Shown piece after piece: positions 1,138 to 38,167 of a stretch of 64,000 bases of DNA. The translations under genes and the position numbers were made by a program. The number at the start of each line of letters is the position of its first letter. Positions within the stretch are counted from its first letter, which is position 1. The DNA is from a virus (lineage: Duplodnaviria > Caudoviricetes). The notes under the pieces were generated by a model. That model had not been told where the DNA came from and searched no databases. It was given only the letters and a program-made list of their open reading frames with translations. The DNA lies in the IMG/VR virus record IMGVR_UViG_3300014204_000124, positions 32,001 to 96,000 of that record; one strand, given 5' to 3'.

Positions 1138-2475
1138 GTGGACGTTGTTGATCGATTCCGAATGGTGGTAGAGAGCAAGGCTATTGGGGCCGACAAGTCG
1201 GAAGAGATGGTTCGACGAGGTCTGAACACGTTTTCTGGGATGTACGATATTGCGTTGGAACAGTGGTTCTTGCGGGTGAACCGGCGGGAAGATGGGAAGG
1301 CTCGGAGTAGTCTGTTGCCGGGGAAAGCTAAGAAGGCATTGGCGAAGGTTTCGGCGTCTGTGAAGGCTTCGGTGAAGCCAGGGATGAGTGTGAAGCGGTG
1401 CTGGGGATTGTGGAAGGCAGCGGCGGCGGAAGCGTTTAGCGGGGAAGAGTACAAGAGTTTGTATGATAGCAAATGGGGTGAGTTGAAGCGAGCCAACGCC
1501 CAGTTGGACGCGTATTTTCGAGCCGCCAGTGACGGCGCAACGGAGGGTCTTATGAGAGATTTAGATAGGTTGAGAATGATTCTGGAAGCGGCTGACAAGA
1601 GTGTGACGAGGGTGAGGATATTGGCTCAGGCGCAGTCGGTCGAGGTCTGGGATAAGGACCGTCTTGTCATGGATTCCGAGAAGACCGATTTCCCGTTTGA
1701 GCCGAACTGGAAGGATTTACCAGGACTTGTAAAGCGTTGCCAGAAGGCATGGCCGAAGGCGAAAGTGGAGTTGAACGAATCGTTCGAATCTGACACGTTG
1801 AACCAACTTTTGGATATGGAAGTCGAACCTTCCCTGACAGAAGAGGGTGTCTCTGCGGACGGTTCTGCGATGATCGTCTTGAAGCTGGATTCTGAGTGGA
1901 AGAAGACGCAGAAGGCGTTGGTGGTAGTTGTCACGAAGGGGTTGGCAGCGGTGAATGCTTGGGCGAAGCAGCAGGGGCTGAAGTTCAAGAAGGCAGCGAA
2001 TCTGTTTGGCGGGGAGTACGTTGACGGGGAAGGCAACTTCTATGTGGCGTACCCTAAAATGCTGAAGGATGGTGCGGCTGAAGGCGGGCGTGTTGCTTGG
2101 GCTGAAGATGAGGACCGTGAGCCTGCGAATCTGGACGAAGCATCTGTGCCGCAGAAGTCGGAGGAAGCGTTCATTGCACCTATGGCGAAGGTAACGGGGA
2201 CGAAGTTCAAGTTGGGCCGAACGGTGATGACTGCCGGGGTCAATGCTGAGATTCAGGATACACCGGCTCTGGGTGGCTGGGTGGCTCAGTGTTTGCAGCG
2301 GCACGCCAAGGGCGACTGGGGCGACATTGACAAGGAAGACGAGGGTGAGAACGACAAGGCGTTGCAGAGCGGCGGGCGGCTCTTCTCCGTCTACAAGAAG
2401 GGGCGTGTAAAGATCTGGATTATCACAGAGGCAGATCGTAGTTCGACGACGGTGCTATTCCCGGATGAATACTAG
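1138..2475 (+). CDS. Multidomain putative internal head protein with two targeting peptides; C-terminal conserved plasmid/phage RH..GDWG...TT.L.P.EY domain
   Basis: MDVVDRFRMVVE|S at the start; second copy MRDLDRLRMILE|A at 1552 with its own GGAGGG; acidic linkers LNE|S, LTE|E, LDE|A. Confidence 0.65.
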   Translation: MDVVDRFRMVVESKAIGADKSEEMVRRGLNTFSGMYDIALEQWFLRVNRREDGKARSSLLPGKAKKALAKVSASVKASVKPGMSVKRCWGLWKAAAAEAFSGEEYKSLYDSKWGELKRANAQLDAYFRAASDGATEGLMRDLDRLRMILEAADKSVTRVRILAQAQSVEVWDKDRLVMDSEKTDFPFEPNWKDLPGLVKRCQKAWPKAKVELNESFESDTLNQLLDMEVEPSLTEEGVSADGSAMIVLKLDSEWKKTQKALVVVVTKGLAAVNAWAKQQGLKFKKAANLFGGEYVDGEGNFYVAYPKMLKDGAAEGGRVAWAEDEDREPANLDEASVPQKSEEAFIAPMAKVTGTKFKLGRTVMTAGVNAEIQDTPALGGWVAQCLQRHAKGDWGDIDKEDEGENDKALQSGGRLFSVYKKGRVKIWIITEADRSSTTVLFPDEY

Positions 2476-2483
2476 GGGGTGCC

Positions 2484-4718
2484 ATGAAAGCGATTGACCG
2501 GCTTGTGCGGGTGTTAGGGGAAGCGTTCGCAGACAGGGCAGAAGAGAGGGCTATGGTCTCTAATTTTGAGTCTGCGTTAAAGGCGTGGGTGAAGTCTTCC
2601 CCGAAAGAGTGGGGAGCGCGTGTTTCTGTACTAACGCCCATTATGAAGCGGTACGCTGGCACAGAGTTCCCGTTCTTGGTGATATTCGACGGGATATCTA
2701 GCGAAGGTCGCCCTGTCTCGTTCAAGTTGACGTATATCACAGCGGAGACGGCGGGGGGGTCTGGCGACGGTGGTATGGAGGTTGCTGCCCAGCATGGTGT
2801 TCCTGTGTGGAAGGGCCGTCGTTTCGACCGTTTATTTGTAGGTGACTTCAAGACTATCTGGCCCGAGTGGCTTGCGCATTGGGACGTTCGGATAAAGGCC
2901 GATATTGAGTCTGGGATTGAGGGAGGGAAGTTTGTTCTTGAGTCTTCCGATGACGAGTCGAATCTGACTGAGGCGGCGATAACAGGGGACAGTCTGTATG
3001 GCCCTGGGAAGGCTGCAAGCAAGTTCGTGAGGAAGCTGGATGTAACAGAGGCGGTGTTTCAACTGACCAAGTATTCTCTGCTGAATCCAGGTGTGATCAC
3101 GCTTGGCGGGAAGGCGGCGAAGGCAGTGTTTCGGGTGTCTGGCTACATTTTGATTGGTTTACCAGGGCGGGTGACGTTTTCAGCGGATTTTGACGATGTA
3201 GCGGTTCAAGTTGATATGGTGCTGGACGGGGAGAAGGCTACGGCGAAGGGTGCCACGGTTGCTTCTGGGATAGACTACGGGGACGCTATTGACGCTGAGG
3301 ATCTCATTGAGAAGCATCTTACGGATGGTGATGCTCTGAAGTTCTACGCCGATTTTTTTGATGATATTCAGGCGAAAGAGGTAGCCAAGGCAAGGGACGC
3401 TGAGGCTGCGAAGCATCCCGCACCTAAGTTTCGGGTTGGTGACAGAGTCTGGTTGCTCGACGACAAGTCTCGGGCTAGGGCTATGAAGTCGAAGGGGCTG
3501 TTCCGTATCGCGAAGTATCTGGGGATTAACACCGACATCCGGGGGGATGCTCACCAATATGAGATTGCTCTTCCTGGAGGAGTGCCGACAGCCGAGTACA
3601 CTAAGCGTTACGAAGGAGAACTTCGTGCTGCGACGTATGCGGAGATGAAGGCGTTTGAGAAGTTGAAGAAGGCGGTGAAGGAGGAGTTTGGAGAAGCGTC
3701 GGCAATGGACGTGACGGTGGTCACTCCTGACAACGAGTTGTCCGATTCGGAGTTGGCTGCCAGGATCAAGTCTTACGGCATCGACAGAAGGGCTGCATGG
3801 AGTCAGTTTGTCATAGCGAGGTCTTTGTCTCCACGTATGGATGCGAAGGACTTCATGGCTATTTTCGATGGAGTTTCGGCAAACCCTCACAAGAAGACGG
3901 TTCGGGTGGATTTCGAGCCTACGCATAGGTCAAAAGACAATCAGGGGCTGACGTGTATGGTGACCCAGCGTCTTCCCCAGCAGGTCCGCTATGTCTTGAG
4001 TCACGGGGGAACAGGGGCAGACCCAGTGTCTATGTTTGAAAAGGGGTGGATACCCATTGGTAAGTCTGAGTCCGTTTCCGAATCAGCGCCCAGTCCGAAA
4101 GCTGAGTGTTTCGAGGTGATGGGGAAGTTGTGGGCAGCGGTATTGAAGAAGACAGGTGCGGAGAAGGTTGCCGAGAAACTGAGCGGGGATGGTGCGAAGC
4201 CGTTCCAGGTCAACCTCGTGTTCATGGTTTCGGATCTGGCTGCCGACGTTCGCAATGCACCTATCGGACGGGGCATTCGCCAGTTCGGGCGTGGTCCTGG
4301 AGGGAGGCTCGGGATTGATCCGCCCGAATTGAGTCTGGAGGCTGCGAAGTGGTGGTATGACCAGACGGATGCGGTGCAATACACGATGACACGGGCGATT
4401 CTTGCGGAGTTTGCCAAATCCAAGGGAATCACCTATGACAAGAAGAAGATGATTGAGAGCGAGGACGAGTCTGAGCGGATGTTGATTGTCACCGATCTCG
4501 ACAGTCTGTATGCGAAGGCTCTGGCTGTGGACCGTCCGAAGAATTCCAATGTTCTGGAGACGGTTCGGCAGTTCTTGAAGCGTGTGCCTGGGTCTAAGCA
4601 ATATGAGTCCAGTGCGACGGGGGGGGAGGCTCCTACGGAAGCCGAGTTGACCTCTTGGGTTGGTGTTTTGAAGCGTTTTTTCTCTGACAACGGAGTGGAC
4701 TGCGGCTGCGAAGGCTAA
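2484..4718 (+). CDS. Large multidomain putative internal head polyprotein
   Basis: MKAIDRLVRVLGE|A start; linkers VLE|SSDDESNLTE|A, FGE|A, VSE|S, MIE|S; SH3/KOW-like segment KFRVGDRV. Confidence 0.65.
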   Translation: MKAIDRLVRVLGEAFADRAEERAMVSNFESALKAWVKSSPKEWGARVSVLTPIMKRYAGTEFPFLVIFDGISSEGRPVSFKLTYITAETAGGSGDGGMEVAAQHGVPVWKGRRFDRLFVGDFKTIWPEWLAHWDVRIKADIESGIEGGKFVLESSDDESNLTEAAITGDSLYGPGKAASKFVRKLDVTEAVFQLTKYSLLNPGVITLGGKAAKAVFRVSGYILIGLPGRVTFSADFDDVAVQVDMVLDGEKATAKGATVASGIDYGDAIDAEDLIEKHLTDGDALKFYADFFDDIQAKEVAKARDAEAAKHPAPKFRVGDRVWLLDDKSRARAMKSKGLFRIAKYLGINTDIRGDAHQYEIALPGGVPTAEYTKRYEGELRAATYAEMKAFEKLKKAVKEEFGEASAMDVTVVTPDNELSDSELAARIKSYGIDRRAAWSQFVIARSLSPRMDAKDFMAIFDGVSANPHKKTVRVDFEPTHRSKDNQGLTCMVTQRLPQQVRYVLSHGGTGADPVSMFEKGWIPIGKSESVSESAPSPKAECFEVMGKLWAAVLKKTGAEKVAEKLSGDGAKPFQVNLVFMVSDLAADVRNAPIGRGIRQFGRGPGGRLGIDPPELSLEAAKWWYDQTDAVQYTMTRAILAEFAKSKGITYDKKKMIESEDESERMLIVTDLDSLYAKALAVDRPKNSNVLETVRQFLKRVPGSKQYESSATGGEAPTEAELTSWVGVLKRFFSDNGVDCGCEG

Positions 4719-4725
4719 TTTATGC

Positions 4726-4753
4726 TTGACTACTCTCACGGTTCGATTATGCT
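4726..4753 (+). promoter_or_regulatory. Sigma70-like promoter, variant of the repeated phage promoter
   Basis: TTGACT-N16-TATGCT preceded by GAT. Confidence 0.7.
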
Positions 4754-29449: not shown

Positions 29450-29773
29450 GTGCCGGTGACCTACCTTAATCTACTGAAGAGGGTAGCGGTGCGGGGGTTG
29501 ATGGAAGGTCGGCTTTCCCCCCGTACCGGTCTCACTGGTAAGAGTCCGGTTTCTGTTTTGCTTTTGCTTACGTCATTAGCATCGGCCCCGGAAGAGTTTA
29601 GTGTTGATGTAGCTGCGAAGGACATTCTTTCGAAGTTTAGAGTCAGCAAGAAGACGCGTGGATTGGTGAACAAGAAAGCCGAGAAAGAACGTGATGTAAC
29701 TGCGGCGTCGAGAATGGCAATGATGGGCGGGGGAATGGGAGGACAATATCCTGAGCCTGAGCCCGAAGAATAG
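29450..29773 (+). CDS. Hypothetical protein
   Basis: GGAGG next to a GTG start. Confidence 0.55.
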   Translation: MPVTYLNLLKRVAVRGLMEGRLSPRTGLTGKSPVSVLLLLTSLASAPEEFSVDVAAKDILSKFRVSKKTRGLVNKKAEKERDVTAASRMAMMGGGMGGQYPEPEPEE

Positions 29774-31205: not shown

Positions 31206-31787
31206 ATGGACGTTATCGATAGATTGAAGTCGTTGGTTGAGTCTGCCCAAGTCGATGTACCCGCTGCGCAGGGAAATACGTTTGGGGAGTCTGCTGGATG
31301 CGACGATACGGCGGATGCCATTGGTGGGGCAGAGCACTATCGGGTGACGTGTCCAGTGTGCGGGGGTGTGACGCAGTGCCGGTGCAATTATGCGCAGCAC
31401 GAGGGCGTTGAGGTATTCGAGGCTTCGGTGGTCTGCGAACGATGCAAGGCCAGCGTTGGGGAGTCGGTCGATGGGGCGCAATCGGTTGCAACTGAGATTT
31501 TGCGACAGCTTGGAGGCCAGAAACTCAGGGCAATGCTTGGCATGAAGGGTTATTTGGTGGTGGATGCTTCGGAAGGGTTCAGTGGCGGTGTGGACTTCAA
31601 GTTTCCTAACAAGACCAAGACGGCTCCGAACAGGGTGGAGATTCTGTTGGCAGACGACGACACCTATACGGTGCGGTTCTACCGGGATTCGAGGAAGTTG
31701 AAAGAACACGACGGGATTTACGCAGACGGTCTCATAGATGTATTCGAGTCAGAGACGGGGCTGTATCTGGCGCTTTCGAGGAGGTAA
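31206..31787 (+). CDS. Putative internal head cargo protein: Zn-finger module plus conserved phage domain (ILRQLGG...DTYTV.F...IY.D.L..VFE..TGL)
   Basis: MDVIDRLKSLVE|S; linkers FGE|S and VGE|S flank the CPVC..CRC..CERC module. Confidence 0.7.
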   Translation: MDVIDRLKSLVESAQVDVPAAQGNTFGESAGCDDTADAIGGAEHYRVTCPVCGGVTQCRCNYAQHEGVEVFEASVVCERCKASVGESVDGAQSVATEILRQLGGQKLRAMLGMKGYLVVDASEGFSGGVDFKFPNKTKTAPNRVEILLADDDTYTVRFYRDSRKLKEHDGIYADGLIDVFESETGLYLALSRR

Positions 31788-32195: not shown

Positions 32196-32600
32196 ATGAA
32201 TACGATAGATAGGTTTGGCCTGTTGGTCGAGGGGACGTTGACTGAGGCCACGAAGTTGCCGTTGACGATGGATGAGTCGGTGGTGGCGACGATGACGGAG
32301 CTGTTGAAGGCGAGCATTGCTGCTTTGCCTGGGCCGTATCTGAAAAAAGAGATCAAGGTTAGCGAATACCGACCAAATGCGCGTATAGCTTTCGCAGCGG
32401 GCAAGACGACGACGAGGTCTGACATTGAGGCGGATGTGACGGTGTCCATAGGTTTTATTGGGCCGTACTCTTACTCAGCTACGGTTGAGGTAGACGGGAG
32501 CAAGCGTGAGTACGAGTTCAAGGGCAGCAAGCCTTTATCCGAGGTTTCGAGGACGATAACGGATATCATTGCCCAGATGACTGGGTGGACGGGGGCGTAA
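32196..32600 (+). CDS. Putative internal head cargo protein
   Basis: MNTIDRFGLLVE|GTLTE|A. Confidence 0.65.
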   Translation: MNTIDRFGLLVEGTLTEATKLPLTMDESVVATMTELLKASIAALPGPYLKKEIKVSEYRPNARIAFAAGKTTTRSDIEADVTVSIGFIGPYSYSATVEVDGSKREYEFKGSKPLSEVSRTITDIIAQMTGWTGA

Positions 32601-32601
32601 A

Positions 32602-33126
32602 ATGGGGACCATTGAACGATTGAGGGCGTTGGTTTCTGAGTCTTCGGGCGACTCGGTTTTTTCCAAGACGTGGTTGCAGAAGTCGGTGTATTTGCCGTTT
32701 GCCACCATGATAGCCAAATTGGTGCGTGCTAATCTGCAAGACTACCTGGGGAACAATACGGGGCTGAAGGTGGAGCGTGCGGTCGGCGGGGATGTTTATG
32801 TCCATGTGGAGTTCTTCGCTGAGAGCAATCATGGGTCGAAGGCTCATCCTTCGCTTCGCGGGTCTTCGACCTATAGGGCGATGCTGTTTTTCCATGGGCT
32901 GGATGAGGACAAGGCGGAAGTCAGGGCTGTCGGGTTGTCTATAGCGATGCCTCTCGTGAACGAGAAGGGACGTGTTGCTGCGATTGAGAAGTTGGAGGTA
33001 GAGTTAAAAGGGCAGAAGCTGACCAGCGAATGGTTCAACAAGGCGTTCAAGCCTTTGTTTCAGGAGCTTCGGGTGAAGGCAGCCGATTTGAGTTCGGATG
33101 ATACGGGGTGGGATTATGAGGACTAG
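32602..33126 (+). CDS. Putative internal head cargo protein
   Basis: MGTIERLRALVSE|S. Confidence 0.65.
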   Translation: MGTIERLRALVSESSGDSVFSKTWLQKSVYLPFATMIAKLVRANLQDYLGNNTGLKVERAVGGDVYVHVEFFAESNHGSKAHPSLRGSSTYRAMLFFHGLDEDKAEVRAVGLSIAMPLVNEKGRVAAIEKLEVELKGQKLTSEWFNKAFKPLFQELRVKAADLSSDDTGWDYED

Positions 33127-33541: not shown

Positions 33542-34009
33542 ATGGATATGATTCAAAGATTTGCAAGGCTTCTTAGCGAAGAGAAAATTGTCATGAAATT
33601 CTATGGCAACTCTTTTCTGGCGAAGTATTCTTCGGAAAGGGGATACAAGCCATGGATGCAAGCCATTTCTGACATTGTTGCCAAACACTTCGGGAAGAAG
33701 GTAGTTATAGAAGACATATACGAGGGCCAGCCTGGGTATGATTTCTGTCGGTGGAACTTCGATATAAGAGGGGACGGAATACGTTTCTTCGGGTCGTTGG
33801 TTTTCAAAAAGAGTCCGGTAGACGATTTCGGGACTGTGTCTGTTGGTTTGAAACGCCTTGGGACTCCTGGAGTGGATGAAGATGTCTGGCTGTTCAGGGA
33901 CAAGGAATTCCCGTTGTCGAAGTGGGAAGACGAGTGGGACGTTGACAAGGCTGCTCTGGCCAAGGTCGAACAGTTGGTCCGTTCTTCTCTTAAGAAGCTC
34001 AAGGCTTGA
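33542..34009 (+). CDS. Putative internal head cargo protein
   Basis: TAAGGAG RBS; MDMIQRFARLLSE|E. Confidence 0.65.
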   Translation: MDMIQRFARLLSEEKIVMKFYGNSFLAKYSSERGYKPWMQAISDIVAKHFGKKVVIEDIYEGQPGYDFCRWNFDIRGDGIRFFGSLVFKKSPVDDFGTVSVGLKRLGTPGVDEDVWLFRDKEFPLSKWEDEWDVDKAALAKVEQLVRSSLKKLKA

Positions 34010-34025
34010 TCTAAAAGGAGATACA

Positions 34026-34526
34026 ATGGATACGATTAATAGGTTTCGAGGGATTCTGACAGAGGCTACTGAAGGGTCGGCGTTCGTGAAGAAGTGGTTG
34101 GGGAAAAGCCTGCGTATGAAGTACGAGGGCGAAGCGATGCAGTTGTTGGCTGATGGATTTGGCGACGGCGAAGTGAAGGCCGGGGATATTCGCAACTCTG
34201 TCGAGGGTCCGGGGCCAGCCAATTTGGGAGCTGACGGTGCTGAGCGAACGGTTACTTCCACGTATCGTTTTGAGAGCAAGGGATTGCGGGTCGAGGCCGT
34301 GTTCGAGTGGTTCGGAGCCGGGAACACTGAAGACCAAGATGATGCGGACCAGATTGGGTTTGACATTACACTTTCAACGGGTGGCAAGGTGCTGGACCGG
34401 GATGGGGCGCAAGTTCAGTTCAAGACTGGCAAGGAGCCTGGGGCGAAGTTCATAAGTGCGTTCAGTAAGGTCTACAACAAGATGGCGAAGGATTACCTAA
34501 AGACATCTCTTAGCAAAAAGGTGTAA
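34026..34526 (+). CDS. Putative internal head cargo protein
   Basis: AAGGAG RBS; MDTINRFRGILTE|A. Confidence 0.65.
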   Translation: MDTINRFRGILTEATEGSAFVKKWLGKSLRMKYEGEAMQLLADGFGDGEVKAGDIRNSVEGPGPANLGADGAERTVTSTYRFESKGLRVEAVFEWFGAGNTEDQDDADQIGFDITLSTGGKVLDRDGAQVQFKTGKEPGAKFISAFSKVYNKMAKDYLKTSLSKKV

Positions 34527-34548
34527 TCCACTTAGAGTGAGGTGCGGC

Positions 34549-35513
34549 ATGGATACCATAGGTCGGTTGAAGGTTCTGTTGGAAGGTTCTGATTTGGCTT
34601 CGGCCATGACCCGTTGGGCAGACTGGTGGGGCAAGCAGGGTCCGAAACTTCTCAAGGAATACCAGGACATGATGGATGGGATGGACATGCTCGTAGTGAG
34701 GTCGAAGTACATGCCCGCCGTGGTCAAGGGTGAAGAGGCGGAGGACAATCCGATGCCACGAAAGGTCCGTTGTATGATGGTGGAATTTCGTTTCGGTTCA
34801 AGGGGTCATCCAAGGCAGACTCTGTAAAAATCATGAAAAACACATGGCCATCGCAGGACAAGCTAGTTGTCTATGACATGTTCTTCATGAAGAAAGGCCG
34901 TGTGGTACGCTCATACACGGAGGTCGTCGCAGCAGCTCTTATACCCTATTTTACATCAGTAACCGGGTTGAAGATTGGTGGGCAAACAAGGCCATGGGGG
35001 GAGAGTCTTGGCTTTGACGTGGTAGAGGGAACGGTCTCCGACGAGTCCAGGAAGACTTTTGTCAAGTGGTTGCTCAAGACATTCCCTGACTACGAGAAGG
35101 TGGCGTTTGAGATTTTGACAAAGGAGCTTGGGGCGTTGGTTGCCGGTGGGTTCAAGCAGACGGACAGTACCAGGGACGAAAACGGGTTGGGGTTCGAGTA
35201 CGAATCTGTTGCCAAAACGAAAATAGGGAAGACTCCTGGGGCGGCCCCGGAAGACGACATGCTCATTCGGCACATCATAGGTGACACGCTGCCGACGTTT
35301 AGGCTGGAGTTGTATGGTGAACACGGCGACGACGCTGCCGGGCACACTCTGGGTTGGACGATGGACATGTATTCGAGGGGCAAGAACGTCGAAGAGGACG
35401 GGATAATTGAGTGGGATGAGGTTGCACCTACTCCCGAGCGATTCGGGAAAGCCTTTGCTATTACAGCCAAGAAGTTCGGGGATGCTGTACGCACCAAGCT
35501 GGCCAAAAAATAA
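34549..35513 (+). pseudogene. Two-domain cargo protein with a -1 frameshift near 34750 (possibly a sequencing error)
   Basis: MDTIGRLKVLLE|G; one extra C at 34750 joins ORFs 34537 and 34770 (EDNPDATKGPLYDGG); domain 1 resembles the C-terminal domain of 31206, domain 2 resembles 34026. Confidence 0.6.
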
Positions 35514-35527
35514 TCTATACGCCACGC

Positions 35528-35589
35528 TTGACATTTCCCCTCTCCCCGATTATGCTGTAAGGGTTCGTTACCGAACCGGAGGTTACAGT
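35528..35589 (+). promoter_or_regulatory. Repeated promoter element, copy 6 (variant)
   Basis: TTGACA-N17-TATGCTGTAAG; GGTTCG-TTAC-CGAACC; GGAGG; TTACAGT complementary to GCTGTAA. Confidence 0.8.
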
Positions 35590-38167
35590 GGGGCACGTTA
35601 TCGATTTATTCGGTGTTTTGGGGGGACAGAGGGAAGATGAGCGTGAGCGGAATATGGCGAAGTTTGCCATTCCCGTAGAGTCTCCCCGTCCGAAACCTGC
35701 TCCCATGCCTGAGAGGCCGGGGTTTCGGCCCGATGGCGTCTGGATTGAGGGTAACGAGATTGTGGTGAAGGCTGCGTACAATCCTGATTCGCTAGCGCCT
35801 GCGCGAGACATTGTTGGGCGGCGCTGGGATTCGGCTGCGAAAGTGACCCGGTTTCCACTATCTTCGAGGGACGCTGTTCGGGCCTGGGTGACACGCTTTT
35901 GGCCCAAGTTGAGTGTGAAGGCACTTGACACAATCGGGGCCGTAGAGCCGAGGATCGAAGTCAGGGAAAACGGGGCATTTCTGTATATTAAGACGCCTTA
36001 TGCGAAGGCATTTGTGGATGGGATGCACGAGCTTCCAGATTGTGAGTATCAGCGTGACGGGTCGAAGGAATGGAAAGTTCCGAGGGACAGAGTTGCGCAG
36101 CTTGCGCAGCTTGCGGAGCGGGTGTACGGGGCGAAGTCGAAGGTTTTGGAAGCCGTTGTTCGGGAGAGTCAAGAGAAGCTGGCTCTGGCCACGGCAGTCA
36201 AGGCAAGCGAGACGATTGAACTGCCCGGCGGGACACTATTTCCATTCCAGGTTGCCGGAGTACAGTTCATAGAAAAGAACAAGTACGCTCTTATAGCGGA
36301 TGAAATGGGCTGCATTGACGGAGACGCTGTAATCAGTTATAGCCGTGCCAGCGTAACTCGCAAATGCACGCTTGCAGAGTTGTATGTGAAGTTCAACCGT
36401 GGCCGTTTCCAAGACGGAATCCCGACTTTTGTGAAGTCTATGTGCGATGGGATTTTGAAGTTGAACCGGGTCGTTTCGGTGCTTGACAAGGGGACTCGCC
36501 CGGTTGTTTTGTTGACACTGGAGAGTGGGAAGACGTTGCGACTGACTCCCGATCATGAAGTTGCCGTGTCTCTCACGGAATTTGCAAGAGTGGACTCGTT
36601 GTCCCCAGGGGACATTGTCTTGACAAAACTCAAAGAAGGCAAGTTCGTTGACAGGGAAGGGGGCACGGCGGGAACTGGGGGCAAGATTGTTTTTATACCG
36701 AAAGAAGATCGTGTTGTTTCAGTCCGAGACGACGGTGTCGCCCATGTTTACGATATCGTGATGGCAGATCCGTACAGAAATTTCGTTGCCGGGGGAGTTG
36801 TCGTTCACAATTGCGGGAAAACGGTCCAGTCAATCGCATACATGTACAGGAATCCCCAGAGTCTTCCGGCGATTGTCGTGTGTCCTGCTAGTGTGAAGGA
36901 AAACTGGAGGCGTGAGATTGAGCATTGGGGTGGAGGCAAGTTGAGTGTGGCGATTGCGGTGCCGAAGAGTTTGGATGGGCAACTTGCAATGAATCCGCCG
37001 AACGTCTTGATCATCAACTACGATCAACTTGGGAAGCTAGTTCTTGAAGACGAGGACATTGTCACGGGGAAGTCAAAACTTTCGGTGCGGCCCAGCGTGT
37101 TGAGGTGGGGGCCGAAGCTAGTCGTGTTCGACGAGGCTCATTATCTCAAGAATTCGAAAGCGAAGCGGAGCAAGGCAGCGGGTGCTATTGCCGAGTTGAC
37201 GGGGCGTCGGGTGATTGAGCTGACAGGGACTCCGGTATTGAATAGGCCGGAAGAATTGTGGCATTTGCTTCACTTGATAGACCCGGAAGCGTGGGGAAGC
37301 GAGAGCAAGTTCAAGTACCGATATTGCGACTGGGAAAAGGCTTGGCACGGTCACGCCGTACGCGTGGGGGCGCAGCGCCTGGACGAGTTGCACAGTCGGG
37401 TGACGGGGCATTACATGGTCCGGCGCTTGAAGAAGGATGTGCTGAAGGAATTGCCAGACAAGATTCGTTCCTGCGTTCCGTTGTGTCTGGAGCCAGCGTT
37501 TGTCGCGGCGTATCGGAAATTGTTTGACAAAACGGCAGCGAAGATCCTTTCGGAGACGGGCGGGCACTTCTCTGCACAGAACTTGGCAGTGGTGAAGGCC
37601 GCTGTAAACACGTTGCGGCAGGAAATTGGGTTGTTGAAAGCCCCCCTCGCGGCAGCGTGGGTTCAAGAGGCTTTGGAGAGCACGGACAAGGTTGTGATTT
37701 TCTCATATCATCATGCGGTGACGGACAAGATCGTCGAGGTGTTGTTGCAGGCCGGGGTGACTGTAGCGAGGATGGACGGGCGCGATTCGTTGGAGAGCAG
37801 ACAGATTGCTGTTGATGCGTTCCAGAACGGGAAATTACAGGTTTTGGCTTGCGGTATCTTGGCAGCGGGTGTTGGCCTGAATCTTACGGCTGCGGATCAA
37901 GTGGTGTTTGCCGAGCGTGCCTGGAGACCGGCGGACCACGAACAAGCGGAAGATCGACTTCACAGAATCGGGCAGAAACGGTGTGTGAATGTGTGGTTTT
38001 TGGATGCCGAGGGGACGATAGACGAGGATGTTCGGGACTTACAGCGCGTGAAGCGAGAGGCTATTTCGCAAACGATAGATGGCGGTGATTCGAGCCATGG
38101 GATGGAAGAGTCACTGGCTGTTCAAGTAGCGTTGCGCATGTTGCGCAGATTCCAAGAGAAGGGGTGA
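35588..38167 (+). CDS. SNF2-family helicase with N-terminal HARP-like domains and an intein
   Basis: ADEMG[intein]CGKT, VCPAS, INYD, DEAH, LTGTP..N, RRLK, G.GLNLT, QAEDR.HRIGQ. Confidence 0.92.
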   Translation: MGHVIDLFGVLGGQREDERERNMAKFAIPVESPRPKPAPMPERPGFRPDGVWIEGNEIVVKAAYNPDSLAPARDIVGRRWDSAAKVTRFPLSSRDAVRAWVTRFWPKLSVKALDTIGAVEPRIEVRENGAFLYIKTPYAKAFVDGMHELPDCEYQRDGSKEWKVPRDRVAQLAQLAERVYGAKSKVLEAVVRESQEKLALATAVKASETIELPGGTLFPFQVAGVQFIEKNKYALIADEMGCIDGDAVISYSRASVTRKCTLAELYVKFNRGRFQDGIPTFVKSMCDGILKLNRVVSVLDKGTRPVVLLTLESGKTLRLTPDHEVAVSLTEFARVDSLSPGDIVLTKLKEGKFVDREGGTAGTGGKIVFIPKEDRVVSVRDDGVAHVYDIVMADPYRNFVAGGVVVHNCGKTVQSIAYMYRNPQSLPAIVVCPASVKENWRREIEHWGGGKLSVAIAVPKSLDGQLAMNPPNVLIINYDQLGKLVLEDEDIVTGKSKLSVRPSVLRWGPKLVVFDEAHYLKNSKAKRSKAAGAIAELTGRRVIELTGTPVLNRPEELWHLLHLIDPEAWGSESKFKYRYCDWEKAWHGHAVRVGAQRLDELHSRVTGHYMVRRLKKDVLKELPDKIRSCVPLCLEPAFVAAYRKLFDKTAAKILSETGGHFSAQNLAVVKAAVNTLRQEIGLLKAPLAAAWVQEALESTDKVVIFSYHHAVTDKIVEVLLQAGVTVARMDGRDSLESRQIAVDAFQNGKLQVLACGILAAGVGLNLTAADQVVFAERAWRPADHEQAEDRLHRIGQKRCVNVWFLDAEGTIDEDVRDLQRVKREAISQTIDGGDSSHGMEESLAVQVALRMLRRFQEKG
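36311..36811 (+). mobile_element. Mini-intein (167 aa) in Walker A of the SNF2 helicase
   Basis: C1 CIDGDA; block B LRLTPDH; block F VYDI; C-terminal VVVHN followed by Cys+1; no LAGLIDADG. Confidence 0.9.

What the first reader, a model, noticed from the sequence alone, without database searches (positions are those of the whole stretch)
1138..4718. Cargo polyproteins: domains strung on acidic x-x-E|[AS] protease linkers
Seen: in the long members, globular domains of about 80-150 aa are separated by acidic linkers that repeat the ending of the targeting peptide. 1138 has LNE|S, LTE|E and LDE|A. 2484 has VLE|SSDDESNLTE|A, FGE|A, VSE|S and MIE|S. 31206 has FGE|S and VGE|S flanking a Zn module. 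34770 has WGE|S and VVE|G. The domains include ones that normally occur as stand-alone mobile-element proteins: the RH..GDWG..TT.L.P.EY domain and the ILRQLGG..DTYTV.F..TGL domain. Inference: a single targeting peptide loads a polyprotein, and the maturation protease then cuts it into several small effectors, so new effectors can be added by gene fusion.
Basis: partly seen in the sequence, partly recalled or inferred. Interest (0 to 1): 0.8.

Follow-up and report, generated by a model that had tools for sequence, protein, structure and literature searches.

The report
Phage head-cargo polyproteins with protease-site linkers
An uncultured 130-kb phage with a T4-type head puts one short "load me into the capsid" peptide on eleven unrelated proteins, and in the two longest it joins swappable modules at the motif its head protease cuts, so they are probably packed into the capsid and cut into small proteins, though no cut or packaging has been measured.

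Summary
No cleavage or packaging has been measured.

- **Host genome.** The window is bases 32001-96000 of a 129.6-kb phage. It has a gp20-like portal, a gp21-like (Peptidase_S77) prohead protease with conserved His and Ser, and a gp23-like capsid protein. The capsid protein's L-T-E| site aligns with the known Glu65 maturation site of T6 gp23.
- **Shared tag.** Eleven otherwise unrelated genes start with M-x-x-[ILV]-x-R-[LF]-x-x-[LIV]-[LV]-(x)-E|[ASGE]. A twelfth copy, with its own ribosome-binding site, lies inside the 445-aa gene.
- **Motif count.** Hydrophobic-x-E|[AS] is not more frequent in the 445-aa and 744-aa proteins than chance allows.
- **Motif position.** Placement is non-random: 8 of 9 module junctions defined independently of the motif have one within 8 residues (P about 8e-5).
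- **Relatives.** A complete syntenic relative (IMG/VR, 133.7 kb) and a metagenomic protein carry the same modules in other combinations, joined at the same motifs. A third phage encodes one module alone, with its own tag cut site at the same spacing.
- **Domains.** Three domains occur elsewhere as stand-alone phage proteins or inside giant polyvalent proteins.

Caveats: one junction has no motif, several motif matches lie inside folded domains, and expression timing is unresolved. The scan has noted the same theme in at least eight other uncultured T4-type phages.

The parts
1138..2475 (+). 445-aa tagged multi-module protein: tag 1, helical module, tag 2, small alpha/beta module, module 3, GDWG domain
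   Evidence: ORF; motif map; comparison with P0002
1138..1173 (+). N-terminal tag MDVVDRFRMVVE| (GTG start)
   Evidence: Tag HMM score 19.0 bits; coordinates checked
1552..1587 (+). Complete internal tag MRDLDRLRMILE| (residues 139-150) with GGAGGG 6 nt upstream of its ATG; marks an in-frame fusion of two tagged genes
   Evidence: (20.5 bits)
1771..1782 (+). Candidate cut site LNE|S (E214), at the end of a small alpha/beta module
   Evidence: (weak model)
1834..1845 (+). Candidate cut site LTE|E (E235); in P0002 the N-terminal tag is joined to module 3 at this point
1843..2139 (+). Module 3 (residues 236-334), 84% identical to P0002 residues 18-122 and present twice in tandem there
2131..2142 (+). 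Candidate cut site LDE|A (E334) in the acidic linker; conserved as LGE|A at the copy1/copy2 junction of P0002
2197..2472 (+). GDWG domain (residues 354-445); elsewhere a stand-alone protein of about 90 aa in phages, or the C-terminus of diverse mobile-element proteins (e.g. DUF6094 proteins)
2484..4718 (+). 744-aa tagged multi-module protein
   Evidence: ORF
2484..2522 (+). N-terminal tag MKAIDRLVRVLGE| (one extra residue); modelled as a helix, residues 2-14, pLDDT 87-89
2934..2975 (+). Acidic linker VLE|SSDDESNLTE|A (E153, E163); the relative P0021 joins its N-terminal peptide to the following module about here
   Evidence: region not confidently modelled
3687..3698 (+). Candidate cut site FGE|A (E404), between helix 370-402 and strand 406-413
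   Evidence: equivalent to SIGE|E in P0021 and to the tag cut site of the stand-alone homologue in L086
3696..4082 (+). Domain 405-533 (pLDDT 96-98); most of the 96 database hits fall here, as stand-alone proteins of 110-140 aa or as parts of proteins of 1200-5300 aa
4074..4085 (+). Candidate cut site VSE|S (E533) in the low-confidence gap 528-543
4083..4457 (+). Domain 534-658; 8 homologues, stand-alone or part of larger proteins (P0041, P0047, P0050, P0060, P0087, P0098, P0107 and others)
4449..4460 (+). Candidate cut site MIE|S (E658) in the low-confidence gap 657-659
4458..4715 (+). C-terminal helical bundle module (659-744, pLDDT 81-96); also the last module of P0021
72..398 (+). Tagged 108-aa gene (MNQLDRLRLLVE|A)
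   Evidence: 27.6 bits
31206..31787 (+). Tagged 193-aa protein: tag, FGE|S, Cys-rich Zn module, VGE|S, ILRQLGG (phrog_9437) domain
   Evidence: the G001 orthologue lacks the Zn module and has an extra C-terminal module after the linker ANLSE|G...LVLE|A
32196..32600 (+). Tagged 134-aa gene
32602..33126 (+). Tagged 174-aa gene
33542..34009 (+). Tagged 155-aa gene
34026..34526 (+). Tagged 166-aa gene (weakest tag, 10.5 bits)
34549..35513 (+). Tagged 92-aa ORF overlapping a tagless 247-aa ORF in another frame (WGE|S, VVE|G); possibly one gene broken or shifted

Best explanation
The 445-aa and 744-aa genes encode capsid-cargo polyproteins of a phage with a T4-type head.

Proposed mechanism:
1. The shared N-terminal amphipathic peptide acts like the capsid targeting sequence (CTS) of the T4 internal proteins. 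It takes the protein into the scaffolding core of the prohead.
2. The gp21-like prohead protease cuts after Glu in [L/V/I]-x-E. It removes the tag and also cuts the same kind of motif in the short acidic linkers between modules.
3. This releases pieces of about 6-26 kDa that stay in the head with the DNA and enter the host cell with it.
4. New cargo is added by in-frame fusion or by insertion of a module into a linker.

Shown here: the protease, its conserved site in the capsid protein, the shared tag on unrelated proteins, the coincidence of motif and module junctions, and module shuffling at these junctions among relatives.

Inferred: targeting, cleavage at the internal sites, retention in the virion, injection, and any function of the modules.
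For: 1. **T4-type head machinery.**
- Portal PF07230, protease PF03420 (42.9 bits against a cut-off of 27) and capsid protein PF07068 (204 bits) are present.
- The protease aligns with T6 gp21. The GE-x-x-HP His, the GVSSRG Ser, the N-terminal LLIE|T and a C-terminal L-x-E|A are conserved.
- The N-terminal domain of the protease matches 2169 phage records.

2. **Protease specificity calibrated in this lineage.** L-T-E| in this capsid protein and in two relatives aligns with L-T-E65| of T6 gp23. This fits the 65-residue propeptide and the L/I-X-E rule reported for T4 (PMC9026906).

3. **The tag.**
- There are 12 copies at 10.5-27.6 bits, and the next best hit in six frames scores 6.9. Eleven sit at ORF starts behind ribosome-binding sites.
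- Synonymous codons vary between copies.
- The protein bodies are unrelated to one another, with BLASTP E above 0.1.

4. **Junctions.**
- The AlphaFold2 model places FGE|A, VSE|S and MIE|S between folded parts.
- The ends of HMMER hits agree with these boundaries.
- Eight of 9 independent junctions have a motif within 8 aa, P about 8e-5.

5. **Relatives.**
- P0002 is a tag, module 3, a second copy of module 3 and the GDWG domain, with L-x-E|A kept at the junction.
- P0021, in the syntenic locus of G001, has three of the modules of the 744-aa protein, with SIGE|E at the same junction.
- The 274-aa protein of G001 rearranges the modules of the 193-aa protein around ANLSE|G and LVLE|A.
- L086 has the 405-533 domain as a single tagged gene. 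Its tag cut site lies 9 aa before the conserved P-D, against 10 and 11 aa in the two polyproteins.

6. **Contrast with foreign homologues.** Linkers in the giant homologues are rich in Pro, Thr, Glu and Ala and mostly lack the motif.

7. **Scaffold-like tail of the protease gene.** It carries [LIV]-x-E-[AS] 9 times against 2.4 expected, P 0.001. T4 gp22 is likewise cut into many pieces.
Against: - No proteomic or biochemical data exist for this uncultured phage.
- The tripeptide is not enriched in these proteins.
- The tripeptide also occurs inside conserved or folded parts: IITE|A of the GDWG domain, VTE|A at 189, and VFE|A in the Zn module. It cannot be sufficient by itself.
- One junction, near residue 305 of the 744-aa protein, has no motif.
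- The N-terminal 400 residues of the 744-aa protein and the whole 445-aa protein are poorly modelled. LNE|S, VLE|S and NLTE|A therefore rest on comparison only.
- P1' and P3 are looser in the linkers (F, M at P3; E at P1') than in most tags.
- Both cargo clusters lie in the part of the genome that is studded with host-type early promoters, and no late promoter was recognised. A terminator-like hairpin just before cluster 1 is only suggestive.
- The junction list was assembled after seeing the data.
Confidence: 0.6

Rival explanations
1. Packaged but not cut apart. The tag loads the proteins into the head and is removed, but the multi-domain proteins stay whole, like unprocessed polyvalent proteins such as the N4 virion RNA polymerase. 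The acidic linkers are only flexible spacers.
For: The tripeptide count is at chance level. Matches also occur inside folded domains. Some polyvalent proteins are delivered unprocessed (PMC5512222).
Against: The motif coincides with 8 of 9 junctions. A hydrophobic residue sits at P3 in otherwise hydrophilic linkers. L-x-E|A is conserved while neighbouring residues change. An internal site is positionally equivalent to a tag cut site in L086. A complete tag lies inside the 445-aa protein. Linkers of foreign homologues mostly lack the motif.
Confidence: 0.2
2. Long disposable propeptides. As in phiKZ and SPN3US, the N-terminal parts are targeting or scaffolding propeptides that are cut at several sites and expelled. 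Only the last domain remains as mature cargo.
For: In SPN3US, all identified cleavages except the protease's self-cleavage produce N-terminal propeptides, and the long ones are cut at several sites (PMC10052503). The first modules after the tags are helical orphans with no homologues.
Against: The middle modules (405-533 and 534-658) are well-folded domains with many stand-alone homologues, and they also occur in polyvalent proteins. The parts after the tags are not paralogous to one another.
Confidence: 0.1
3. The shared N-terminal peptide has another role, such as an oligomerisation helix, a localisation signal or a regulatory leader peptide. The proteins are not virion cargo.
For: The clusters lie among early-type promoters. 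No direct evidence of packaging exists.
Against: The tag ends in the protease's motif in all 12 copies. It is conserved at peptide level, not at DNA level. One tagged gene (genome position 184) lies inside the structural module. The relatives G001 and G002 have tag sets of their own next to head genes.
Confidence: 0.07
4. Artefact. The long ORFs are fusions created by assembly or sequencing errors that removed stop codons between small tagged genes.
For: The internal tag has its own ribosome-binding site and ATG in the 445-aa ORF. A nearby pair of ORFs looks frameshifted.
Against: Only one of about ten junctions carries a start signal. Independent assemblies (P0002, P0021 and G001) also encode multi-module proteins joined at the same motifs.
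Confidence: 0.03

Closest known systems
T4 internal proteins IPI, IPII, IPIII and Alt: capsid targeting sequence plus gp21 processing (PMC9026906, PMC3012670)
   Same: A short N-terminal peptide is shared by unrelated proteins. It ends in the L/I-x-E motif of a Peptidase_S77 prohead protease encoded by the same phage. The head genes are homologous, and the capsid protein's maturation site is conserved.
   Different: The tag sequence differs from T4's. In T4, each protein carries one cargo domain. Here, two to six unrelated modules follow one tag (or two tags) and are separated by tag-like cut motifs, and the modules are reshuffled between relatives.
Polyvalent proteins of phages and conjugative elements (Iyer, Burroughs, Anand, de Souza, Aravind 2017; PMC5512222)
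   Same: Many unrelated small domains sit in one polypeptide of an invading element that is predicted to travel with the DNA. Two domains found here also occur in giant proteins of that kind (e.g. P0038, with SNF2 helicase and topoisomerase IB). The authors already drew the analogy with viral polyproteins.
   Different: That paper proposes release by peptidase domains embedded in the protein. Here no peptidase domain was found in the proteins. The proposed cutter is the trans-acting head protease, and the address is a T4-like tag. No Pfam polyvalent-protein-associated domain matched.
Head and ejection proteins of phiKZ, 201phi2-1 and SPN3US processed by gp175/gp245 (PMC10052503, PMC5694885)
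   Same: A diverged gp21 homologue cuts after Glu in a three-residue motif at several sites within one substrate.
   Different: In those phages, the multiply cut part is an N-terminal propeptide that is discarded and one mature fragment remains. Here the parts between sites are independent folded domains with stand-alone homologues.

Membership tests
T4-type capsid targeting sequence / gp21 processing system | A Peptidase_S77 (gp21-like) prohead protease is encoded by the same genome | tested here: met
   PF03420 at 42.9 bits against a cut-off of 27, and phrog_207 at 3e-36. tblastn hits to gp21 genes in 2169 phage records.
T4-type capsid targeting sequence / gp21 processing system | Catalytic His and Ser of gp21 are conserved | tested here: met
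   In the alignment with T6 gp21, His82 (GE-x-x-HP) and Ser139/140 (GVSSRG) are invariant. That these are the catalytic residues rests on my knowledge of T4 gp21.
T4-type capsid targeting sequence / gp21 processing system | Cleavage after Glu in L/I-x-E, as at the maturation site of the major capsid protein | tested here: met
   L-T-E| in this capsid protein and in two relatives aligns with L-T-E65| of T6 gp23. The rule and the 65-residue propeptide come from PMC9026906. This is by sequence only; no cleavage was observed.
T4-type capsid targeting sequence / gp21 processing system | A short N-terminal peptide shared by otherwise unrelated proteins and ending at a protease site | tested here: met
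   Twelve copies, 11 at ORF starts. Conserved at peptide level but not at DNA level. The protein bodies are unrelated.
T4-type capsid targeting sequence / gp21 processing system | Proteins are found in proheads and virions with the tag removed | not testable with these tools
   The phage is uncultured and no proteome is available.
Polyvalent proteins (Iyer et al. 2017) | Two or more unrelated domains in one polypeptide of a phage or conjugative element | tested here: met
   The modules are delimited by homology and by the model.
Polyvalent proteins (Iyer et al. 2017) | Domains are shared with recognised polyvalent proteins | tested here: inconclusive
   The 405-533 domain occurs in proteins of 1200-5300 aa, one with SNF2 helicase and topoisomerase IB and one with a zeta-toxin-like kinase. 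The GDWG domain ends DUF6094 proteins. No Pfam polyvalent-protein-associated family matched the window's proteins or 74 homologues.
Polyvalent proteins (Iyer et al. 2017) | An embedded peptidase domain for self-release (present in a subset only) | tested here: not met
   Pfam, PHROGs and NCBIfam gave no peptidase match in either protein. Orphan modules remain unassigned.
phiKZ/SPN3US-type long N-terminal propeptides | The N-terminal region is discarded after multiple cuts, often in paralogous families | tested here: inconclusive
   The regions after the tags are not paralogous, and the middle modules are independent domains. The fate of the fragments cannot be tested.

The most novel reading that the evidence does not exclude
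T4-type phages have a general plug-and-play cargo system. One capsid address peptide, together with copies of the head-protease site used as linkers, lets any small protein be added to the injected arsenal by in-frame fusion. The head protease then turns each polyprotein into a set of separate small proteins inside the capsid. This phage shows the process at several stages: a fusion that still keeps its second tag and ribosome-binding site, a module duplicated in tandem together with its linker, a module inserted into a linker, and the same domain as a single tagged gene in another phage.
Probability: 0.5. Interest if true: 0.75.

Novelty: new variant of a known kind. Interest (0 to 1): 0.62.

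Why it matters
Proteins injected with phage DNA act before any phage gene is expressed, so they are prime candidates for counter-defence and host take-over. If head proteases process multi-module cargo, three things follow.

- Many long 'hypothetical' phage ORFs should be read as sets of small injected proteins.
- The cut motif gives a rule for predicting mature cargo from sequence alone.
- The design offers a natural template for loading several foreign proteins into T4-type capsids with one tag.

It would also link two known ideas, the T4 capsid targeting sequence and polyvalent proteins, through a mechanism that I found described for neither in the papers searched.

Tried and rejected
- **Family searches.** Pfam, PHROGs and NCBIfam gave nothing for the two proteins, apart from a weak phrog_3032 match. 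Pfam on 74 homologues of the 405-533 domain found no family for it.
- **Fold searches.** The 744-aa model was searched with Foldseek against PDB and BFVD and with VIA-align wide. Only generic helical-bundle matches to the last module appeared (Z up to 7.4). Nothing was found for the 405-533 domain, which was barely tested because the whole model was used.
- **ESM Atlas.** It confirmed stand-alone GDWG proteins but gave no function.
- **Searches for relatives.**
  - The two proteins, the capsid protein and P0002 found nothing in IMG/VR.
  - The one metagenome scan returned only GDWG domains from human gut contigs.
  - The neighbour-gene alignment found one unrelated low-GC phage.
  - Searches for short homologues of residues 13-340 of the 445-aa protein and of the 329-aa tagged protein found none.
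- **Promoters.** The T4 late-promoter motif TATAAATA is absent, so expression timing is unresolved.
- **N-termini of homologues.** An anchor-based survey of the N-termini of all homologues matched too few sequences to be of use.
- **Simple enrichment.** I considered simple enrichment of the tripeptide as support and rejected it.


Full report
**Setting**

The window is bases 32001-96000 of a single 129,634-bp phage contig whose ends overlap. All plausible genes lie on the + strand, and GC skew is about +0.28 along the whole genome.

Outside the window the genome carries a T4-type head module:
- a gp20-like portal (PF07230), interrupted by an intein with an HNH nuclease;
- a 565-aa protein whose first 190 residues are a Peptidase_S77 prohead protease (PF03420, 42.9 bits against a cut-off of 27; phrog_207, 3e-36);
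- a gp23-like major capsid protein (PF07068, 204 bits).

The protease domain aligns with T6 gp21. The GE-x-x-HP histidine, the GVSSRG serines, the N-terminal LLIE|T and an L-x-E|A at the end of the domain are conserved.

**Specificity of the protease in this lineage**

The literature gives L/I-X-E as the gp21 rule and a 65-residue propeptide for gp23 (PMC9026906).
- T6 gp23 has L-T-E with Glu at position 65. This tripeptide aligns with L-T-E| in the capsid proteins of this phage and of two relatives. The site used on a bona fide substrate is therefore conserved by sequence.
- The scaffold-like coiled-coil tail of the protease gene holds [LIV]-x-E-[AS] nine times against 2.4 expected from shuffles (P 0.001). 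T4 gp22 is likewise cut into many pieces. Heptad periodicity may contribute to this count.

**The tag**

I built a profile from the N-terminal peptides and ran it over all six reading frames.
- It finds 12 copies at 10.5-27.6 bits; the next best hit scores 6.9.
- Eleven copies are the first residues of ORFs, each behind a ribosome-binding site. The codons differ synonymously, so the peptide is what is conserved, not the DNA.
- The consensus is M-x-x-[ILV]-[DEGQN]-R-[LF]-x-x-[LIVM]-[LV]-(x)-E|[ASGE].
- With the tag removed, the proteins show no similarity to one another (BLASTP E above 0.1).
- In the model of the 744-aa protein the tag is a confident helix (residues 2-14, pLDDT 87-89).

This is the pattern of the T4 capsid targeting sequence: a short address shared by diverse internal proteins and removed by gp21 (PMC3012670, PMC9026906).

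**The observation**

- The 445-aa protein also holds a complete second tag at residues 139-150, with GGAGGG six bases before its ATG.
- The same tripeptide occurs inside conserved or folded parts: IITE|A in the GDWG domain, VTE|A at residue 189 of the 744-aa protein, and VFE|A inside the Zn module.

The number of motifs is not above chance. There are 7.5 per 1000 aa in tagged proteins against 6.0 elsewhere, and shuffles give P of 0.15-0.26. Any case must therefore rest on where the motifs are.

**Position of the motifs: the 744-aa protein**

A full HMMER search of 1.84 billion representatives gave 96 hits besides the protein itself.
- Most hits cover residues 405-530. They are stand-alone proteins of 110-140 aa or parts of proteins of 1200-5300 aa. 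One of the large proteins has an SNF2 helicase and topoisomerase IB, and another a zeta-toxin-like kinase.
- Eight hits cover residues 530-660.

The AlphaFold2 model built with these sequences is confident for residues 1-40, 405-527 (pLDDT 96-98) and 660-740.
- FGE|A (E404) sits between helix 370-402 and strand 406-413.
- VSE|S (E533) lies in the low-confidence gap 528-543.
- MIE|S (E658) lies in the gap 657-659.

Residues 44-368 are mostly poorly modelled (pLDDT below 50 over 44-71, 75-286 and 312-368), so VLE|S and NLTE|A cannot be judged from structure.

**Position of the motifs: the 445-aa protein**

The single-sequence model was useless (pLDDT 43.7), but a relative, P0002, is informative.
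- P0002 (330 aa) starts with a tag-like peptide joined directly to module 3, at the point where the 445-aa protein has LTE|E.
- P0002 then repeats module 3 in tandem, with L-G-E|A at the junction where the 445-aa protein has L-D-E|A. It ends in the GDWG domain.
- Across that junction P3, P1 and P1' are kept, while P2, P2' and P3' differ.
- Stand-alone GDWG proteins begin at residue 354, twenty residues after LDE|A.

**Orthologous loci**

P0021 (385 aa) lies on a complete 133,713-bp IMG/VR genome, G001. G001 has the same strand bias and a protease 75% identical to this one. Its cargo locus is syntenic with this one.
- It has the same Cys-rich neighbour gene, then three short tagged genes, then P0021 in the place of the 744-aa gene. 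There is no counterpart of the 445-aa gene.
- P0021 carries three of the modules of the 744-aa protein, joined at SIGE|E and at an acidic stretch with VVSE|V.
- Relative to P0021, the 744-aa protein has one module inserted upstream of the FGE|A site and another inserted between VSE|S and MIE|S.

The 193-aa protein at 31206 is tag, FGE|S, Zn module, VGE|S, then the ILRQLGG domain.
- The G001 counterpart is tag, ILRQLGG domain, the linker ANLSE|G...LVLE|A, then an extra module.
- Homologues of the ILRQLGG domain in 34 phage records start at residues 90-95, just after VGE|S.

A third phage fragment (G002, locus L086) encodes the 405-533 domain as a single 131-aa gene with a tag of that phage's own type, ending in YLVE|K.
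- That cut site lies 9 residues before the conserved P-D.
- The corresponding distance is 10 residues from FGE|A here and 11 from SIGE|E in P0021.

An internal linker site is thus positionally equivalent to a tag cut site.

**Statistics**

I listed nine junctions defined without reference to the motif, using BLAST or HMMER ends, model gaps and breakpoints between relatives.
- Eight have a [LIVMF]-x-E|[ASGE] within 8 residues.
- In 20 multi-domain homologues of the 405-533 domain (P0021, from the related phage G001, is among them and gives one of the nine positives), 9 of 37 junctions have one within a wider window of 12 residues either side.
- With that generous background the binomial P is about 8e-5.
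- The junction list was drawn up after seeing the data, so this number is indicative only.
- The exception is the left end of the module near residue 305 of the 744-aa protein, which has no site. The piece from 164 to 404 (26 kDa) would therefore stay as two modules.

**Mechanism**

The most likely reading (about 0.6) runs as follows.
1. The tag loads the proteins into the prohead core.
2. The protease removes the tag and also cuts the linkers.
3. This yields pieces of 6-26 kDa, plus short acidic peptides, that remain in the head and enter the cell with the DNA.

The internal tag with its own start signals shows one route of growth: fusion of two tagged genes. The tandem module in P0002 shows another, and the inserted modules of the 744-aa protein show a third.

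None of these steps has been measured, and the function of every module is unknown.

**Rival readings**

- The proteins are packaged whole (about 0.2).
- The N-terminal parts are disposable propeptides, as in phiKZ and SPN3US (about 0.1; PMC10052503).
- The tag has another role (0.07).
- The long ORFs are assembly artefacts (0.03).

**Points against the main reading**

- Both cargo clusters lie in the region that holds 19 copies of a host-type promoter, TTGAC-N17-GATTATGCT.
- The T4 late-promoter motif is absent from the genome.
- A good terminator-like hairpin at genome 30380-30403 precedes cluster 1. One tagged gene, at genome position 184, lies within the structural module. Timing remains open all the same.

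**Comparison with what is known**

- The system shares the T4 capsid targeting sequence and gp21 logic. It differs in placing several unrelated modules behind one tag with tag-like sites between them.
- It resembles the polyvalent proteins of Iyer et al. (PMC5512222), who also compared them with viral polyproteins. That paper proposes embedded peptidases as the releasing agents, and none was found here.
- In the papers I could search, the only multi-site cutting of T4, phiKZ or SPN3US head proteins described is of scaffold or core proteins and of discarded propeptides; I found no head protease described as cutting a multi-domain cargo protein into retained pieces. The library is incomplete.
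- I class this as a new variant of a known kind.

**Earlier notes of this scan**

First-stage notes on this genome list the same tags, the internal fusion and the 744-aa linkers. I had found these independently before I read the notes.

Follow-up reports on at least eight other uncultured T4-type phages describe the same theme. They are unchecked AI notes and are not evidence. If they hold, the phenomenon is widespread and this phage is one more instance, with unusually clear comparative support.

Noticed in passing
whole window (and whole 129.6-kb genome): GC skew is about +0.28 in every 2-kb window, and all plausible genes are on one strand. The relatives G001 and G002 show +0.21 to +0.22.
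   Followed up: partly
outside the window: genome 104646-106343: The prohead protease and a 375-aa coiled-coil scaffold-like region form one 565-aa ORF, with L-E-E|A at the joint. In the relative G001, the two parts match in separate stretches with a TAG stop inside the first. The head protease gene itself looks like a small polyprotein.
   Followed up: partly
window 34537-35513: A tagged 92-aa ORF overlaps a tagless 247-aa ORF in another frame across a TTTCGTTTCGG repeat. This may be one cargo gene with a frameshift, either real or a sequencing error.
   Followed up: partly
P0050 (687 aa, homologue of the 534-658 domain, from another lineage): Its modules, including a pentapeptide-repeat block, are separated by a recurring S-x-K-T-A-M peptide. 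Its N-terminus is a different helical peptide, and P0047 has a similar one. This may be the same design with another protease's site.
   Followed up: no
L086 9968-14809 (G002, 77.9-kb IMG/VR fragment): There are two different N-terminal tag families just downstream of the head genes. Four genes start M-N-L-R-x-R-G-Y-L-x-E, and four start M-x-L-x-K-[VI]-N-E-L-L-x-[ED].
   Followed up: no
window 29450-29773 and L085 16411-16728: A small protein with a hydrophobic middle segment has a clear tag-like start in G001 (MRQLRRLERLVE|S). In this phage the start is degenerate (ending GLME|G). It may be a further, diverged member of the tagged set.
   Followed up: no
window 35588-38167: The SNF2-family helicase has a sub-threshold Intein_splicing match at residues 293-408 (33.6 bits against a cut-off of 35.8). 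The portal gene outside the window has a clear intein with an HNH nuclease.
   Followed up: no
window 4726-4753 and 18 other places in the genome: The promoter-like unit TTGAC-N17-GATTATGCT occurs 19 times between genome positions 11361 and 91575, and never in the structural module. One copy lies directly after the 744-aa gene.
   Followed up: partly
L005-L084 (human gut metagenome contigs): The GDWG domain is very common in human gut mobile elements. Eighty loci were returned from a single 8-residue pattern.
   Followed up: no
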